IMG/VR virus record: IMGVR_UViG_648276660_000016
Length of the DNA stretch: 5,181 bases
Source: a virus
Lineage: Duplodnaviria; Heunggongvirae; Uroviricota; Caudoviricetes
Strand: one strand, 5' to 3'
Part shown: positions 1,255 through 5,181 of the stretch, one piece after another
Layout of the letters: each line of letters opens with the position of its first letter
How positions within the stretch are numbered: the first letter of the stretch is position 1
Notes under the pieces: model-generated
What the model was told of the DNA's origin: nothing
Databases searched by the model: none
What the model saw: only the letters and a program-made list of their open reading frames with translations
Translations under genes and position numbers: made by a program

Positions 1255-1449
1255 TTAATTATTCTGCTGATTTTCTTCCATCTCGGCTTCTGCTGCCAGT
1301 GATTCAATTTTATCTGTGAATATTGCTGACAGTGTTGCAAATTCAGCATCAGTGACAGCGGGAATTGGAACAAACCTGATCCCGCTGTGTGCAAGCATGT
1401 TTGCAGTTTCAAGGCATTTCCTTAAATCTGATGGTGATGCCCTGTTCAT
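1255..1449 (-). CDS. Small hypothetical protein (64 aa) with acidic C-terminus (…AEAEMEENQQNN)
   Basis: ATG at 1449-1447 overlaps the methyltransferase stop (ATGA overlap, 1446-1449). SD-like GGGAG sits 8 nt upstream on the - strand. Stop is at 1257-1255, 3 bp from the integrase stop. No recognisable domain; could still be a spurious frame. Confidence 0.4.
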   Translation of the reverse strand: MNRASPSDLRKCLETANMLAHSGIRFVPIPAVTDAEFATLSAIFTDKIESLAAEAEMEENQQNN

Positions 1450-2096
1450 GCTGCACGCTCCCGCCCCTGGTTGTCTGTTGGTGACAGCGGAGCATTGCTG
1501 AATGCATTTGTTAATCTGGCAATATCCAACGCGTATCCAGGGTGTAGTTGCACTGCCGGGTCTTCGCACTGATTACCCCAAACATCGAAACCATGAGACG
1601 ACTGGCGGGCGAACAGTTCAATGCGAGAAACATCGCCTAACAATTGCACAAGTTTTTCACGAACGATATCTGGTTTTCTTGAATGCTCAAGCCGCGGTGC
1701 GGTAAATGACTGAACGATCCCTGCATTAATGCGCGTAGGTAGTTTTCCCTTTACTGCAAACAGGCAATCTTCACTATTGGCGCGAGTCATGTGACCCATA
1801 CCCATAACCAGTTTATCTGGTTGTCGACTACCACATTTTATCCACGTGAATCCCTTCATGGTCATCAGACGGAATCCCCAGGCCTCAACAACTTTTAGTG
1901 CTTCGAGTGGTTGTGTTGGCACCCACCACATGGCCAACAGACAGTTTTCATCGGCCAAATCCCACACAGGAAGGCGGCAGATATCCAGCACACTCATAAC
2001 CGGATATTTAAAACCGGCACCGCGATTACCATCTGCGGCTTTGTCCCGGTATACCCAGGGTGGATCTGCATAGATTAGTGTGTATTTCTTAGTCAT
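1446..2096 (-). CDS. MT-A70-family DNA N6-adenine methyltransferase (phage orphan MTase)
   Basis: N-terminal MTKKYTLIYADPPW carries the DPPW catalytic motif (codons at 2066-2055). Later FARQSSHGFDVWGNQ matches the usual C-terminal end of phage MT-A70 enzymes, followed by a ~39-aa extension. ATG 2096-2094 is embedded in the stop region of the upstream ORF (8-nt overlap). An alternative GTG start at 2108 is possible. Confidence 0.85.
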   Translation of the reverse strand: MTKKYTLIYADPPWVYRDKAADGNRGAGFKYPVMSVLDICRLPVWDLADENCLLAMWWVPTQPLEALKVVEAWGFRLMTMKGFTWIKCGSRQPDKLVMGMGHMTRANSEDCLFAVKGKLPTRINAGIVQSFTAPRLEHSRKPDIVREKLVQLLGDVSRIELFARQSSHGFDVWGNQCEDPAVQLHPGYALDIARLTNAFSNAPLSPTDNQGRERAA

Positions 2097-2388
2097 AAAC
2101 CACCCCACAACATCCTATGCCGCTATAGTCGCCACGGCGAAGGCCGTTACCTTTTGTGATACATTGGTCCCTGCGAACCGCGATCCTTGCACGCTCAACA
2201 TCACCAGAAGCAACATCCATACACTGAAGCCAAAGGTGAGCGGCAATGCGGAACTGCCCTTTTTTCTCTCTTTCAATCGCGCGTTTTTCGATCTCTATCG
2301 CCGCAGGAGTAACGGCGACAATCTTTGACGGACTGCGCATTGAAACCTTGTTCATGTGATATTTTTCAAGTCGGCTTAACTTTCTCAC
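2089..2388 (-). CDS. Hypothetical protein (99 aa), charged N-terminal half, Cys-containing C-terminus
   Basis: ORF on the operon strand whose stop TAA (2091-2089) overlaps the methyltransferase start. GTG start at 2388 is preceded by GAGAGGG about 9 nt upstream; an alternative ATG at 2355 lacks an SD. No domain recognised by eye. Confidence 0.5.
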   Translation of the reverse strand: MRKLSRLEKYHMNKVSMRSPSKIVAVTPAAIEIEKRAIEREKKGQFRIAAHLWLQCMDVASGDVERARIAVRRDQCITKGNGLRRGDYSGIGCCGVVYD

Positions 2389-2497
2389 TTAATCCAACCC
2401 TCTCTGAAAATTAATGCCAGCAGATAAAGCCATGCTGAAACAGAGGCCAGGAATAAGTACCATCCTGACCATTTGCTCCAGTGCCTTAGCAGCACAC

Positions 2498-2746
2498 TCA
2501 TGCCGCGTTGCTCACGGGACGATATACACGTTGCTGAACAGGAGGTTTTTTACCCTGGAACTCTGCCGGGCTTGCTGCCTGACGTTCATCAAGCCAACGC
2601 TCAACTTCATCACGGTTCCATGCGCAGCGTTTATCGGTGATATACCAGCGTTTAGGAAATTCCCCTGCGCGCTCCATACGGTCGATAGTGCTCCATGACA
2701 GTGGAACCACCGCCAGGAGTTCCTTCTTACCTAATGCACCTTTCAT
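2498..2746 (-). CDS. AlpA/excisionase-family helix-turn-helix DNA-binding protein (candidate recombination directionality factor or transcriptional regulator)
   Basis: 82-aa ORF with ATG at 2746-2744 and SD GAGAGG 5 nt upstream. LLAVVPLSWSTIDRMERAGEFPKRWYITDKRCAWNRDEVERWLDER fits the AlpA/Xis winged-HTH pattern (S-x-S-T-I-x-R ... FP ... W ... E-W). Followed by a 26-aa low-complexity tail. Confidence 0.75.
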   Translation of the reverse strand: MKGALGKKELLAVVPLSWSTIDRMERAGEFPKRWYITDKRCAWNRDEVERWLDERQAASPAEFQGKKPPVQQRVYRPVSNAA

Positions 2747-2768
2747 AAATACCTCTCTTGGTTGCAGT

Positions 2769-2787
2769 GCGGCGCGCGTGGCGCCGC
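2769..2787. repeat. GC-only inverted repeat GCGGCGC-gcgtg-GCGCCGC (7-bp stem, 5-nt loop) in the annealase/AlpA intergenic spacer
   Basis: Perfect complementarity read directly from the sequence. It lies 8 nt past the annealase stop and about 10 nt before the AlpA-like SD on the - strand transcript. No U-tract follows in either orientation. Confidence 0.5.
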
Positions 2788-2795
2788 GGTGGTGG

Positions 2796-3737
2796 TTACA
2801 TAGATGTTTCGTTTAATTCTTCCCGACGAACGCTGTAAACGTCGGTGGCTTTTGCCAGCAGTTCGTCATCATCTGAAAGTTTTTGTGCAATGTATTTGTA
2901 AGCCTTATCCAGTTCGGAGACAGTGCTGTAATTCATCGCTGCGCTGGTAAAGGCCATCAGCATTTCTTCTGGATCACGGCTGTCCGATTTACGCGTTTGC
3001 TCATCAGGCTTTTTCGCTGGTTTAGCGTTGATCAGACTGTTCATTCCCGCAGCAGTGGTCGTTTGCGGAGTAATGTCTCGCTCAACGCGCGGTGCCGTTT
3101 CCTGTAATTCGTCTGGGGTGTAGACGCCCATGATTACGTCAGGACAGTGCAGGCGAGACCAGCGTTTTGTCGCAAGGTATGCGAGTTGTTGTTTCGGATC
3201 ACTGGCCCAAAGTGTGGAGTTTCTTACCTGTGCTTGAGACAGCATTAACTCAAGCACTCGAGGTTGATCCTCGCCCTTCATGGTTGCCCATACGCGAACA
3301 CCGCAGCCTTCTTCGTCTTTTAGAGTCCAGCCTGGTGCGATATATGGATTGCCGTTTTTGGATGTTTTCTCAACAAACTTACCGATCACGCGTTCCCACG
3401 GCCCGAACCACTCGTAGTTGATGCGATCTTTTGTTGGCGACATCGTTGAGATAACTGCGTTTACTAATTGGGCTTCATAACCTAGCGTGCCGTTCACAAC
3501 ATGGGTTTTCTGAGCCACGGCAAACGGGTTCATTCCCCACTGCGCAGCCTGCATTGCCACGGCCATGCAATCAGCTGGTTTCCCGGCGAGGTGCGCCGGT
3601 ACCGTTACGCGGCTTTGCGCCATTACCTCGGCGAATTTCATCAGTTGGTTCAAGCCGTCTGGGCTGAAAATAGTTGCAGCAGTTCCAGCGATTGCTGTGT
3701 CTACTGGTGCGTTGATGTTTGCGATGTCGTTGCTCAT
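2796..3737 (-). CDS. Red-beta/RecT-family single-strand annealing protein (phage recombinase)
   Basis: Motifs align by eye with lambda Bet: QWGMNPF (Bet QYGLNPW); W-x-S-x-PK...RL...G-V-Y-x-x-D-E (Bet GPWQSHPK...ARLAFGFAGIYDKDE); and ERDITP (identical in Bet). ATG at 3737-3735 overlaps the exonuclease stop (ATGA) and has AGGA about 9 nt upstream. The ORF-track GTG start at 3764 lacks an SD. Confidence 0.85.
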   Translation of the reverse strand: MSNDIANINAPVDTAIAGTAATIFSPDGLNQLMKFAEVMAQSRVTVPAHLAGKPADCMAVAMQAAQWGMNPFAVAQKTHVVNGTLGYEAQLVNAVISTMSPTKDRINYEWFGPWERVIGKFVEKTSKNGNPYIAPGWTLKDEEGCGVRVWATMKGEDQPRVLELMLSQAQVRNSTLWASDPKQQLAYLATKRWSRLHCPDVIMGVYTPDELQETAPRVERDITPQTTTAAGMNSLINAKPAKKPDEQTRKSDSRDPEEMLMAFTSAAMNYSTVSELDKAYKYIAQKLSDDDELLAKATDVYSVRREELNETSM

Positions 3738-4555
3738 ATGTACATATCCTGTTTGCGTGCCCACTCAGGGCGTTTAATGATTTCCACACCGCCCCATTCA
3801 TCATTGATGCGGCATTCGTGATAGGTATTCAGATCCCGGCGGAACAGAGCGTGCCCGGCATCGACATCCTGCGCATCCAGCTCGAACACGCGTACCGGAT
3901 ACCGACCACAATCAATGCTTTCGCTCACGGCAAGAAAGAAAAAACCATGCGGCTGACCAGTAACCCTCATTGCGCCTTCGCGGTACATTGCGTCCTGCAC
4001 GTGGTAGCGGAATTCCTCGATGTGGCGTGCAAAACGGTCCATATCTGCAACCTTTTTCACGTCGACGATCACGTTGTGCTCGTTCAGCCATTTGTCTGGA
4101 CGAATTCGGCACAACTCCCCCGTCTCTTCATCGTTCCAGTACATTGATGCTTCGCAGTAACCAGGTGCTTCCAGCATCCAGCGTGCCGCCGGGTGAGCCA
4201 TTGCGCTATCACGCATCAGCTCCAGTTTCCGCCACTGCTCGGCATCAAGTACCGTAATCCCCATATCCGCCACATCACGAAGAAATTCCTCTTCGTCAGC
4301 TTTACCTTGTTTCGTCCGACGATCGAATTTCGGTGAAACAATGAAGCGTTTGTCGAACTCTCCAGGCTCCAGAAGCAGACAGTGCAATGCGGTTCCCATA
4401 TCCAGTGCAGACTTTTTCTCTTCGTCTTCTGGTGCTGCCTGAACCCATTTAAGAAGCGCCGGATTCTTGGCAACCATGTCCAGTTGCGACTTACTCACGC
4501 CGTCACCGGCGTGGTAGTCTTCGTTGCTGATGTCGAAATAAATTCCCGGTTTCAT
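3734..4555 (-). CDS. Putative PD-(D/E)XK exonuclease, RecE/YqaJ-like short form, partner of the annealase
   Basis: 273-aa ORF immediately upstream of and translationally coupled to the annealase. Contains RIRPD...NVIVDVKKV, consistent with a PD-(D/E)xK nuclease core. SD AGAGGGA lies about 7 nt upstream of ATG 4555-4553. Exact family (RecE C-terminal domain type versus YqaJ type) was not resolved without a profile search. Confidence 0.75.
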   Translation of the reverse strand: MKPGIYFDISNEDYHAGDGVSKSQLDMVAKNPALLKWVQAAPEDEEKKSALDMGTALHCLLLEPGEFDKRFIVSPKFDRRTKQGKADEEEFLRDVADMGITVLDAEQWRKLELMRDSAMAHPAARWMLEAPGYCEASMYWNDEETGELCRIRPDKWLNEHNVIVDVKKVADMDRFARHIEEFRYHVQDAMYREGAMRVTGQPHGFFFLAVSESIDCGRYPVRVFELDAQDVDAGHALFRRDLNTYHECRINDEWGGVEIIKRPEWARKQDMYI

Positions 4556-4851
4556 GCCGCGTCCCTCTGCCCATCAAGCTGATCAGCCAGATCCCAGCGG
4601 GCGATAATTGCCATTGCCTCGCGCCGGTAGGCATCCATTAGTTCTTCGAACTCAGGGCTGTCTTTAGCGGCCTCCAGTACTTCCTGGCGAACGCCTTTAA
4701 CTGTTACAACGTCGAAAGTTGATGCCAGTTGATGAAGCCGGATACTCTCAATCAGTTCAACTTGTCGGTCATATAGCTGTTCTGACAGACGGTAGTCCTT
4801 GTCGAATGCCAGCATGATTTTTTGAAGATTTTTCTGCTGATTAACGTTCAT
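4552..4851 (-). CDS. Hypothetical protein (99 aa), predicted helical; unknown accessory of the recombination module
   Basis: ATG at 4851-4849 is preceded by a strong SD GGGAGGG about 7 nt upstream. Its stop overlaps the exonuclease start (ATGA at 4552-4555). The ORF-track start at 4866 is an ATG lying inside the SD and is less likely. Confidence 0.65.
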   Translation of the reverse strand: MNVNQQKNLQKIMLAFDKDYRLSEQLYDRQVELIESIRLHQLASTFDVVTVKGVRQEVLEAAKDSPEFEELMDAYRREAMAIIARWDLADQLDGQRDAA

Positions 4852-4853
4852 TA

Positions 4854-5006
4854 TCAGCCCTCCCATATCTCGTTATCGTTGGCCACATCGCGAGCTTCTT
4901 TGCTGACGAAAGCCCACTTAATGCCTTCCTGTAAGGTGCGGAACTTCCAGCTCATGAATCCGCATGCAGTAACGCAGTACCAACCGTTGATGATTTTCCA
5001 CTGCAT
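4854..5006 (-). CDS. Small Trp-rich hypothetical protein (50 aa, MQWKIINGWYCVTACGFMSWKFRTLQEGIKWAFVSKEARDVANDNEIWEG); absent from the ORF track
   Basis: Translated by hand from the - strand. ATG at 5006-5004 with SD GAGGT (5019-5015) 8 nt upstream. Stop TGA at 4856-4854 lies 2 nt before the next gene's ATG, and that gene's SD is embedded in this ORF's last codons. It is the first ORF downstream of the predicted promoter. Confidence 0.45.
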   Translation of the reverse strand: MQWKIINGWYCVTACGFMSWKFRTLQEGIKWAFVSKEARDVANDNEIWEG

Positions 5007-5025
5007 AACTTGTTACCTCGGTCTG

Positions 5026-5040
5026 TTACCGTTGAGGTAA
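5026..5040. promoter_or_regulatory. Operator-like inverted repeat, site A: TTACC-gttga-GGTAA
   Basis: Perfect 5-bp arms with a 5-bp spacer. Abuts the -10 hexamer and covers the predicted TSS. Same half-site as site B. An extra TTACC half-site lies at 5013-5017 inside the direct repeat TGTTACC (5011-5017 and 5024-5030). Confidence 0.45.
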
Positions 5041-5068
5041 TAATTATGCGTATATGGTTTGATGTCAA
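5040..5068 (-). promoter_or_regulatory. Putative sigma70 promoter for the leftward operon: -35 TTGACA (5068-5063), 17-bp spacer, -10 AATTAT (5045-5040)
   Basis: Perfect -35 consensus read on the - strand. The -10 matches 4 of 6 positions, including the conserved A at position 2 and T at position 6. Predicted TSS is near 5033, giving a 5' UTR of about 27 nt to the first ATG. Not verified experimentally. Confidence 0.45.
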
Positions 5069-5086
5069 TAGATATGAGTTAAAAAA

Positions 5087-5103
5087 ATTACCCGTTAGGT
5101 AAT
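5087..5103. promoter_or_regulatory. Operator-like inverted repeat, site B: ATTACC-cgtta-GGTAAT
   Basis: Perfect 6-bp arms with a 5-bp spacer, 17 bp overall. Lies about 20 bp upstream of the -35 hexamer. Centre-to-centre distance to site A is 62 bp. Confidence 0.45.
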
Positions 5104-5148
5104 CGAATAGGCAATAAAAAAGCCCCCCCAAAGCGGCGGTTCTTCTTT

Positions 5149-5181
5149 AAAAAAAAATTTTTTTTTTTTTTTTTTTTTTTT
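5149..5181. repeat. Homopolymer tract A9 followed by T24, running to the end of the window
   Basis: Read directly: a at 5149-5157, t at 5158-5181. Preceded by a C7 run at 5123-5129. Nature unknown; see findings. Confidence 0.9.

What the first reader, a model, noticed from the sequence alone, without database searches (positions are those of the whole stretch)
5011..5110. Leftward early promoter bracketed by two near-identical 17-bp palindromic operators (TTACC-N5-GGTAA)
Two sites with the same half-site and the same 5-bp spacer lie within 80 bp: site A at 5026-5040 over the -10/TSS, and site B at 5087-5103 upstream of a perfect TTGACA -35. A third TTACC half-site sits at 5013-5017. The geometry (17 bp, 6-bp arms, 5-bp spacer) is that of lambdoid cI/Cro-type operators, but the sequence differs from the lambda OL/OR operators as I recall them. 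The 62-bp spacing is close to 6 helical turns, compatible with cooperative binding or looping. This implies a dedicated repressor encoded outside the window, probably just to the right, and defines the immunity specificity of this element.
Basis: partly seen in the sequence, partly recalled or inferred. Interest (0 to 1): 0.55.

Follow-up and report, generated by a model that had tools for sequence, protein, structure and literature searches.

The report
Known repressor operators flanking prophage early promoter
The two palindromes are real and are the repressor-binding sites bracketing the leftward early promoter of a phiV10/epsilon15-type E. coli prophage, but the matching sites are already annotated in phage epsilon15 and the repressor family has been studied, so this is a correct rediscovery rather than something new.

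Summary
TTACC-N5-GGTAA occurs exactly twice in the window, at 5026-5040 and 5088-5102, against 0.09 expected. The two sites lie 62 bp apart and flank a minus-strand sigma-70 promoter (TTGACA 5068-5063, 17 nt, AATTAT 5045-5040).

The window is the left arm of a phiV10/epsilon15-like (Uetakevirus) prophage found in about 10% of complete E. coli genomes. In near-identical relatives, a 194-aa repressor gene ends just right of the window. That protein is a full-length homologue of Salmonella phage SPC32H Rep (PDB 5D50, E=4e-42).

Three sites sit between the repressor gene and the gene in the Cro position. There are 8-11 perfect sites per phage genome against about 0.04 expected.

The layout operator / 18 nt / -35 / 17 nt / -10 overlapping the second operator is conserved in seven phages from four host genera. 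Spacing is 62-63 bp; the half-sites are invariant and the 5-bp spacers vary.

The epsilon15 RefSeq record already annotates the orthologous sites as repressor-binding.

The repressor is not lambda-cI-like. The SPC32H homologue is a tetramer inactivated by a LexA-controlled antirepressor. The third half-site is the ribosome-binding site. The last ~55 bases of the window are corrupted. Interest is low.

The parts
5025..5041 (.). Operator A, promoter-proximal. Core TTACC-GTTGA-GGTAA at 5026-5040. It overlaps the last 2 nt of the -10 hexamer and covers the predicted start.
   Evidence: The whole 17-mer, spacer included, is invariant in E. coli and Enterobacter relatives. It is orthologous to the epsilon15 site 32554-32570, annotated 'protein_bind repressor'.
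5087..5103 (.). Operator B, upstream. Perfect 17-bp palindrome ATTACC-CGTTA-GGTAAT, centred about 62 bp upstream of the predicted start.
   Evidence: The arms are invariant while the 5-bp spacer varies freely among relatives. It is orthologous to the epsilon15 site 32616-32632, annotated 'protein_bind repressor'.
5063..5068 (-). -35 hexamer TTGACA of the leftward early promoter.
   Evidence: TTGAC is invariant in all relatives compared.
5040..5045 (-). -10 hexamer AATTAT (GATTAT in epsilon15, SPC32H and the Klebsiella phage), 17 nt after the -35. Its last AT are the first two bases of operator A.
5032..5033 (-). Predicted transcription start, an A 7-8 nt downstream of the -10. This would give a leader of about 27 nt.
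   Evidence: Inferred from promoter geometry. Not measured.
5069..5086 (-). A+T-rich 18-nt stretch between operator B and the -35, beginning with a T5-6 tract on the transcribed strand. It may act as an UP-like or bendable element.
   Evidence: The length is conserved: 18 nt in six phages and 19 nt in the Klebsiella phage. The T tract is present in all. The function is inferred.
5013..5019 (-). Shine-Dalgarno GAGGTAA of the first early-left gene.
   Evidence: the transcribed strand reads CCGAGGTAACAAGTTATG. TTACC is common in the window, 15 times on the + strand. epsilon15, SPC32H and the Klebsiella phage have a full third operator at this point and a leader of about 91 nt.
4854..5006 (-). First gene of the early-left operon, 50 aa, homologue of phiV10 gp39 and epsilon15 gp37. 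Function unknown.
   Evidence: No Pfam match.
1255..4866 (-). Rest of the early-left operon served by this promoter: gp36-like protein, PD-(D/E)XK exonuclease, RecT, AlpA-type excisionase or regulator, PerC-like protein, MT-A70 methyltransferase, DUF1382 protein. It converges on the integrase gene (1-1251, + strand).
5113..5139 (-). Position of the rho-independent terminator of the upstream repressor gene (GCCGCC-TTAT-GGCGGC-T6 in relatives). It is damaged in the window from about 5127 onward.
   Evidence: Annotated in phiV10. Alignment. Folding energy: -21.1 kcal/mol (z -6.5) in phiV10 against -14.8 (z -1.6) in the window.
5127..5181 (.). Corrupted end of the window, made of homopolymer-like sequence. 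Relatives carry the terminator and the 3' end of the repressor gene here.

Best explanation
This region is the leftward early promoter of a phiV10/epsilon15-type (Uetakevirus) prophage, together with its two operators.

Layout. A sigma-70 promoter (TTGACA, 17 nt, AATTAT) drives the minus-strand operon that starts at 5006. Two palindromic sites, ATTACC-N5-GGTAAT, flank it. One is centred on the predicted start. The other is centred about 62 bp upstream, just after the terminator of the repressor gene.

In the lysogen. The prophage repressor binds both sites. Operator A then blocks RNA polymerase at the -10 and start site. This repressor is a 194-aa homologue of SPC32H Rep, encoded immediately right of the window and transcribed in the same direction.

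Looping (inferred, not shown). The SPC32H homologue binds DNA as a tetramer, and the operator spacing is fixed at about six helical turns. I therefore think one tetramer probably bridges A and B, wrapping or looping the promoter.

Derepression (inferred). It most likely follows the SPC32H route, not RecA-stimulated cleavage. The SOS response inactivates LexA, a small antirepressor Ant is made, and Ant takes the Rep tetramer apart.

Shown here: the sites, their statistical excess, conservation of the layout, the adjacent repressor homologue, recurrence of the motif, and the presence of ant with a LexA box in phiV10.

Not shown here: binding, looping and the transcript start.
For: - Site statistics: two perfect sites against 0.09 expected.
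- Identity of the element: the window is a phiV10-like prophage arm. The promoter module is present in 557 of 5426 complete E. coli genomes.
- Repressor: the gene lies adjacent in relatives. It is a full-length homologue of SPC32H Rep, PDB 5D50, E=4e-42.
- Recurrence: three sites lie between the repressor gene and the divergent gene. There are 8, 11 and 10 perfect sites in phiV10, epsilon15 and SPC32H against about 0.04 expected.
- Conserved layout: the same arrangement, with 62-63 bp spacing, occurs in seven phages of E. coli, Salmonella, Enterobacter and Klebsiella.
- Footprint: operator arms 23 of 24 positions invariant, central spacers 2 of 10, -35 hexamer 5 of 6, other positions 16 of 35. 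The same pattern holds within E. coli diversity.
- Second copy of the module: the same arrangement with 62-bp spacing sits upstream of the DUF1064 or Holliday-junction-resolvase gene in six phages.
- Prior annotation: the epsilon15 RefSeq record marks the orthologous sites 'protein_bind, repressor'.
- Recognition motif: NLVNRW in the N-terminal domain is invariant in six repressors.
- Tetramer and Ant mechanism: reported for SPC32H Rep (PMC9638917). Its tetramerisation domain resembles a DNA-looping domain (PMC9986798).
- Induction route: phiV10 Ant is 88% identical to SPC32H Ant, with a LexA box CTGTATAAATACACAG just upstream.
Against: - I have no direct binding, footprint or transcript-start data for this element.
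- The primary papers on epsilon15 and SPC32H were not held. I could not confirm which operator sequences were tested experimentally.
- The window does not contain an intact repressor gene; its right end is corrupted.
- The -10 hexamer is only 4 of 6. One promoter-like hit in this stretch is what chance gives.
- The constant 62-bp spacing could simply reflect a fixed promoter layout rather than looping.
- A secondary source states that only one tetramer is needed for repression, but not which sites it contacts.
Confidence: 0.85

Rival explanations
1. The operators act independently, with no looping. Operator A alone represses by occluding the -10 and the start. Operator B is an auxiliary site that raises local repressor concentration, blocks read-through from the repressor gene, or modulates an UP-like element. 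On this view the 62-bp spacing is only a by-product of a fixed promoter layout.
For: The spacing equals operator + 18 nt + -35 + 17 nt + -10 overlap, so any conserved promoter with flanking sites would show it. The Klebsiella phage tolerates 63 bp. The three sites next to the repressor gene sit 17 and 30-48 bp apart, so repressor evidently also works on closely spaced sites.
Against: The 18-19-nt stretch between operator B and the -35 keeps its length in seven phages while its sequence drifts. The same 62 bp recurs at a second, unrelated promoter in six phages. The homologous repressor is a DNA-binding tetramer with a looping-type tetramerisation domain.
Confidence: 0.35
2. The palindromes are bound mainly by a different phage protein rather than by the Rep homologue. 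The candidate is the small protein encoded in the Cro position (phiV10 gp41 / epsilon15 gp39).
For: In lambdoid phages Cro shares the repressor's operators. A 76-aa gene sits divergent from the repressor gene, next to the three-site cluster.
Against: That protein has no detectable helix-turn-helix or other Pfam domain. The epsilon15 record assigns the sites to the repressor. The putative recognition motif of the Rep N-terminal domain is invariant, in step with the invariant half-site. Shared use by both proteins is not excluded and would not contradict the main explanation.
Confidence: 0.07
3. The palindromes are chance matches, or sites for a host factor unrelated to prophage immunity.
For: None found. 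Only the isolated third half-site behaves like chance.
Against: 0 of 200 shuffles gave two sites. The excess over expectation is 200-300-fold in three phage genomes, with almost all sites intergenic. The arms are invariant across four host genera. The sites travel with the phage, not with the host.
Confidence: 0.02

Closest known systems
Repressor-binding sites of Salmonella phage epsilon15 between genes 37 and 38 (RefSeq NC_004775.2, protein_bind 'repressor' at 32554-32570 and 32616-32632)
   Same: The position is orthologous: repressor gene, then upstream site, -35, -10 and downstream site, then the first early-left gene. The half-sites (ATTACC/GGTAAT), 17-bp length, 62-bp spacing and TTGACA -35 are the same.
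   Different: The central 5-bp spacers and the intervening sequence differ. epsilon15 has a third full site 76 bp further downstream and a leader of about 91 nt, against about 21 nt from operator A to the ATG here. The repressors are only about 42% identical overall.
SPC32H Rep / Ant lysis-lysogeny switch (PDB 5D50, 5D4Z; Kim et al. 2016 PNAS and Kim & Ryu 2013 J Virol, seen here only through citing papers)
   Same: The adjacent repressor is a full-length homologue (E=4e-42). SPC32H carries the same operator module. phiV10-type phages carry an Ant that is 88% identical, with a LexA box upstream.
   Different: The host differs (E. coli rather than Salmonella). Repressor identity is about 42-50%. 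Nothing has been tested for this element.
Lambda OL/PL with cI and Cro
   Same: The logic and gene order match: a repressor gene transcribed leftward, a terminator, then a repressible leftward early promoter driving recombination and excision genes. The sites are 17-bp, roughly symmetric, and recur at a divergent repressor/cro-position region.
   Different: The two sites flank the promoter 62 bp apart instead of three tandem sites over it. The half-site sequence and spacing differ. The repressor has no S24 autocleavage domain and is removed by an antirepressor. Extra sites lie at many other intergenic regions.
Repression by loop-forming tetramers at operators that flank a promoter (gal OE/OI, lac O1/O3; lambda repressor on sites set 5-6 turns apart, Hochschild & Ptashne 1986, from memory)
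   Same: Two operators bracket the promoter at a near-integral number of helical turns (62 bp is about 5.9 turns). The homologous repressor is a tetramer.
   Different: Looping is not demonstrated here. The putative loop would be unusually short.

Membership tests
Uetakevirus (epsilon15/SPC32H/phiV10) Rep operators | 15-17-bp palindrome (A)TTACC-N5-GGTAA(T) | tested here: met
   Both sites are perfect for the 10 specified bases. The same motif is found in epsilon15, SPC32H, phiV10, Tyrion, BUCT554 and the Klebsiella phage BUCT711.
Uetakevirus (epsilon15/SPC32H/phiV10) Rep operators | Orthologous position: after the repressor-gene terminator, flanking the promoter of the first early-left gene | tested here: met
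   Synteny and module alignment.
Uetakevirus (epsilon15/SPC32H/phiV10) Rep operators | Cognate Rep-family repressor encoded by the same element | tested here: inconclusive
   The gene is present immediately to the right in every relative examined and is homologous to PDB 5D50. The window itself ends in corrupted sequence where the gene would begin.
Uetakevirus (epsilon15/SPC32H/phiV10) Rep operators | Motif recurs at the region between the repressor gene and the Cro-position gene, and at other early promoters of the element | tested here: met
   Shown in relatives 95-98% identical to the window. It cannot be shown inside the window, which stops short of those regions.
Uetakevirus (epsilon15/SPC32H/phiV10) Rep operators | Physical binding by Rep and repression of the promoter | not testable with these tools
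   This needs a gel shift, a footprint or a reporter assay. The primary papers were not held.
Lambda-type cI/Cro operators (OL) | Three tandem 17-bp sites, separated by a few bp, overlapping the -35 and -10 | tested here: not met
   There are two sites, 62 bp apart, flanking the promoter. Only one overlaps the -10.
Lambda-type cI/Cro operators (OL) | Repressor with an N-terminal HTH and a C-terminal LexA-like S24 autocleavage domain | tested here: not met
   Pfam finds only HTH-type domains and no Peptidase_S24. The best solved relative is SPC32H Rep.
Promoter repression by DNA looping between flanking operators | Two operators at an integral number of helical turns, with an oligomeric repressor able to bind both | tested here: inconclusive
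   A spacing of 62-63 bp is conserved at two promoters. The tetrameric state is known only for the SPC32H homologue, from the literature.

The most novel reading that the evidence does not exclude
A single Rep tetramer may bridge the two operators, which sit at a strictly conserved spacing of about 62 bp. That would enclose the whole promoter in one of the shortest natural repression loops.

The same loop cassette is reused at a second promoter, and single operators guard most other transcription units of the phage. Rep would then act as a genome-wide silencer, not a two-locus switch.

In the phiV10-type leader there is also a fold-back hairpin that forms only in transcripts starting upstream of the promoter. 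It would hide the ribosome-binding site and AUG of the first early gene from read-through out of the repressor gene.
Probability: 0.3. Interest if true: 0.4.

Novelty: already known. Interest (0 to 1): 0.15.

Why it matters
It confirms that this prophage type, present in roughly one in ten complete E. coli genomes, uses the epsilon15/SPC32H repressor-operator system at its leftward early promoter. That is useful for annotating these prophages: the phiV10 record lists no operators. It also helps in designing reporters or de-repressed derivatives of phiV10-type phages. It changes no current understanding. The only open mechanistic point is whether the conserved six-turn spacing reflects looping by the Rep tetramer.

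Tried and rejected
- Primary literature. I tried to read Kropinski 2007 on epsilon15 (PubMed 17825342 / PMC2698709), Kim 2016 PNAS (PMC4983836) and Kim & Ryu 2013 (PMC3807360). None is held. What I say about Rep's tetramer and Ant rests on citing papers and on memory.
- vB_EcoP_ZX5 paper (PMC9782041). It predicts PL and PR and only speculates that the repressor acts at PL. It defines no operator sequence.
- Rfam. No RNA family matched in the window.
- Terminator scan. It found nothing in 4700-5181. The cause is the corrupted window end, not absence of a terminator.
- Third TTACC at 5013-5017 as an operator remnant. Rejected as a binding site: it has no right half, the pentamer is common in the window, and it is the Shine-Dalgarno complement.
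- Membership in lambda-type OL. Rejected on layout and repressor family.
- Covariation support for the fold-back hairpin. The one informative E. coli variant (GPEC1337) improves one pair and breaks the neighbouring one, so it gives no support either way.

Full report
**What is in the sequence**

TTACCGTTGAGGTAA lies at 5026-5040 and TTACCCGTTAGGTAA at 5088-5102. A search for TTACC-N5-GGTAA allowing one mismatch finds only these two sites in the 5181-base window. The expectation is 0.09, and none of 200 shuffles gave two. The repeat finder reports them as one family with a 62-bp start-to-start spacing.

The promoter scan returns a single site in 4700-5181, on the minus strand: TTGACA at 5068-5063, a 17-nt spacer, and AATTAT at 5045-5040. 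One such hit is no more than chance gives in this stretch, so the promoter call rests on conservation, described below.

With the -10 ending at 5040, the expected start is the A at 5033. Operator A is then centred on +1 and operator B on about -62.

Two details need correcting:
- Only site B is a perfect 17-mer with 6-bp arms. The outermost pair of site A is G/T.
- The third TTACC (5013-5017) has no partner half. TTACC occurs 15 times on the + strand of the window. This copy is simply the complement of the Shine-Dalgarno sequence GAGGTAA, seven bases before the ATG at 5006.

**What the element is**

The window is the left arm of a phiV10/epsilon15-like podovirus prophage (genus Uetakevirus). 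It holds the integrase gene (1-1251, + strand). A converging minus-strand operon follows, ending at the 50-aa gene 4854-5006. That operon encodes a DUF1382 protein, an MT-A70 methyltransferase, a PerC-like protein, an AlpA-type excisionase, RecT, a PD-(D/E)XK exonuclease and two small proteins.

The 123-bp promoter region is found in 557 of 5426 complete E. coli genomes, and 123 records are at least 99% identical.

In phiV10 and in E. coli chromosomes 95-98% identical to the window, the next gene to the right is a 194-aa helix-turn-helix protein on the same strand. A strong rho-independent terminator follows it, and then operator B. So the repressor gene sits upstream of this promoter and is transcribed in the same direction, the order seen for lambda cI and PL.

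The window cannot show this itself. From about 5127 to its end it degenerates into homopolymer-like sequence that does not match any relative. That damage destroys both the terminator stem and the 3' end of the repressor gene. The terminator folds at -21.1 kcal/mol (z -6.5) in phiV10 against -14.8 (z -1.6) in the window.

**The repressor**

The adjacent protein matches the repressor of Salmonella phage SPC32H (PDB 5D50) over its full length, E=4e-42. Pfam finds helix-turn-helix domains and no S24 peptidase domain.

Papers that cite the SPC32H structural work say Rep binds DNA as a tetramer. The paired DNA-binding domains come from different dimers. A tetrameric antirepressor, Ant, breaks the tetramer (PMC9638917). 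The tetramerisation domain resembles the DNA-looping domain of pLS20 Rco and of p53 (PMC9986798).

phiV10 encodes an Ant 88% identical to SPC32H Ant. A canonical LexA box, CTGTATAAATACACAG, lies just upstream of it. The same SOS, then Ant, then Rep route therefore very probably applies to this prophage type.

**Recurrence of the motif**

It does:
- In phiV10 and in E. coli ECCNB12-2, the 154-bp region between the repressor gene and the divergent 76-aa gene holds three sites, with 0, 2 and 1 mismatches.
- Genome-wide, phiV10 has 8 perfect sites, epsilon15 has 11 and SPC32H has 10. About 0.04 are expected in each.
- Almost all of these sites are intergenic. They lie before the terminase genes, before the head genes, between ant and the tail-fibre gene, before the lysis genes, and near the attachment site.

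**Conservation of the layout**

I lined up the region between the repressor stop codon and the first early-left gene in seven sequences: the window, phiV10, Enterobacter phages Tyrion and BUCT554, epsilon15, SPC32H and Klebsiella phage BUCT711.

All share one layout. Operator B comes first, then 18 nt beginning with a T tract, then TTGAC(A/T), then 17 nt, then (A/G)ATTAT, whose last two bases open operator A. The operator spacing is 62 bp in six and 63 bp in the Klebsiella phage.

Conservation across five aligned sequences:

| Element | Invariant positions |
|---|---|
| Operator arms | 23 of 24 |
| Central 5-bp spacers | 2 of 10 |
| -35 hexamer | 5 of 6 |
| Remaining positions | 16 of 35 |

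Divergent E. coli prophages show the same pattern. The spacer of operator B varies freely, whereas operator A is invariant throughout, spacer included.

The same cassette appears a second time in six phages, upstream of the DUF1064 or Holliday-junction-resolvase gene. It runs terminator, operator, 18 nt, TTGA-type -35, 17 nt, then a -10 overlapping a second operator, again with 62-bp spacing.

**How it most likely works**

Shown by comparison:
- This is the leftward early promoter.
- The two palindromes are its operators.
- The cognate protein is the adjacent Rep homologue.

Inferred:
- Rep on operator A occludes the -10 and the start site.
- Because Rep is a tetramer and the six-turn spacing is held fixed at two different promoters in four host genera, one tetramer probably contacts both sites and loops or wraps the promoter.
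- Induction goes through LexA-controlled Ant, not through repressor cleavage.

The looping step is the weakest. A fixed promoter layout alone would also give a constant spacing.

**Comparison with what is known**

The RefSeq record of epsilon15 already carries 'protein_bind, repressor' features at 32554-32570 and 32616-32632. These are the orthologues of sites A and B. It also marks 32479-32494 and four other places. The specificity, the layout and the repressor family are therefore already on record.

What the records and papers I could read lack is the same annotation for phiV10-type E. coli phages. The phiV10 record lists only terminators. The vB_EcoP_ZX5 paper only speculates about repressor action at PL.

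The region is not a lambda-type OL. The site number, arrangement and half-site differ, and the repressor has no autocleavage domain.

All six repressors compared keep the motif NLVNRW, and all the phages keep the same half-site. The operators thus mark a genus-wide specificity rather than one peculiar to this element.

**Verdict**

The feature is already known in kind and, through its orthologues, in detail. Interest is low.

The two points that might repay an experiment are the conserved 62-bp spacing (looping by a Rep tetramer?) and a fold-back hairpin noticed in passing. Transcripts that begin upstream of the promoter pair 5034-5049 with 5003-5019, which covers the ribosome-binding site and the AUG. 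These fold at -17.9 kcal/mol (z -4.5). The predicted native transcript does not fold (-3.8, z 0.3). Similar hairpins form in Tyrion and BUCT554.

Noticed in passing
window 5127-5181: The last ~55 bases are homopolymer-like (GCCCCCCCAAAGCGGCGGTTCTTCTTTA9T24) and match no relative. phiV10 and E. coli chromosomes carry the repressor-gene terminator and the 3' end of the repressor gene here. This looks like a low-quality contig or read end, not biology.
   Followed up: yes
window 5003-5049, minus strand: A 10-nt inverted repeat (5010-5019 / 5034-5043) extends into a hairpin in RNA that starts upstream of the promoter. The hairpin pairs the -10 and operator A left half with the Shine-Dalgarno sequence and AUG of the first gene (-17.9 kcal/mol, z -4.5). 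A transcript starting at 5033 lacks the upstream arm and stays open (-3.8). Similar hairpins form in Tyrion and BUCT554. It could silence translation of read-through from the repressor gene, as IS10 does for outside transcripts. There is no covariation support.
   Followed up: partly
L001 7244-7320 (phiV10 35070-35146), and the same place in epsilon15, SPC32H, Tyrion, BUCT554 and BUCT711: A second copy of the cassette (operator, -35, -10, operator) with the same 62-bp spacing sits after the replication-gene terminator, upstream of the DUF1064 or Holliday-junction-resolvase gene. Here the downstream operator's GAGGTAA doubles as the gene's ribosome-binding site, with the ATG 5-6 nt later.
   Followed up: partly
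L003, L004, L005 (whole genomes of epsilon15, phiV10, SPC32H): There are 8-11 perfect operators per genome against about 0.04 expected. They lie before the terminase, head, tail-fibre/ant and lysis genes and near the attachment site. The repressor may therefore silence most transcription units directly, somewhat like the many repressor sites of mycobacteriophage L5. The epsilon15 record annotates only 7 of them and omits the three next to the repressor gene.
   Followed up: partly
L003 32479-32493, L005 33528-33542, L010 about 4275-4295: epsilon15, SPC32H and the Klebsiella phage have a leader of about 91 nt with a third full operator just before the ribosome-binding site of the first gene. 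phiV10-type phages, including the window, have about 21 nt from operator A to the ATG and no third operator. The Klebsiella copy of the third site has a 4-bp spacer (TTACC-AAAT-GGTAA).
   Followed up: partly
window 5025-5041 compared with 5087-5103; alignment A3: Among E. coli and Enterobacter relatives, the 5-bp spacer of operator B changes freely (six variants in seven sequences). Operator A is identical throughout, spacer included (TCAAC on the transcribed strand). This suggests an extra constraint there, such as the start site or the hairpin.
   Followed up: no
L004 20822-20837 and 20543-20800: phiV10 carries an antirepressor 88% identical to SPC32H Ant, with a perfect LexA box just upstream. 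A one-mismatch Rep operator lies about 40 bp further upstream (20877-20891), so ant may be under both LexA and Rep control.
   Followed up: partly
window 2796-4555 compared with L001 1896-3656: The window and most E. coli relatives have separate exonuclease and RecT genes. The phiV10 RefSeq record annotates a single fused 1761-nt RecE-RecT gene, which may be a frameshift or a sequencing difference in that record.
   Followed up: no
L008 about 4140-4170 (Tyrion): Tyrion has an extra ATTACC half-site 11 bp upstream of operator B (GATTACCTGACAATTACC...), seen as an 11-bp insertion in the alignment.
   Followed up: no
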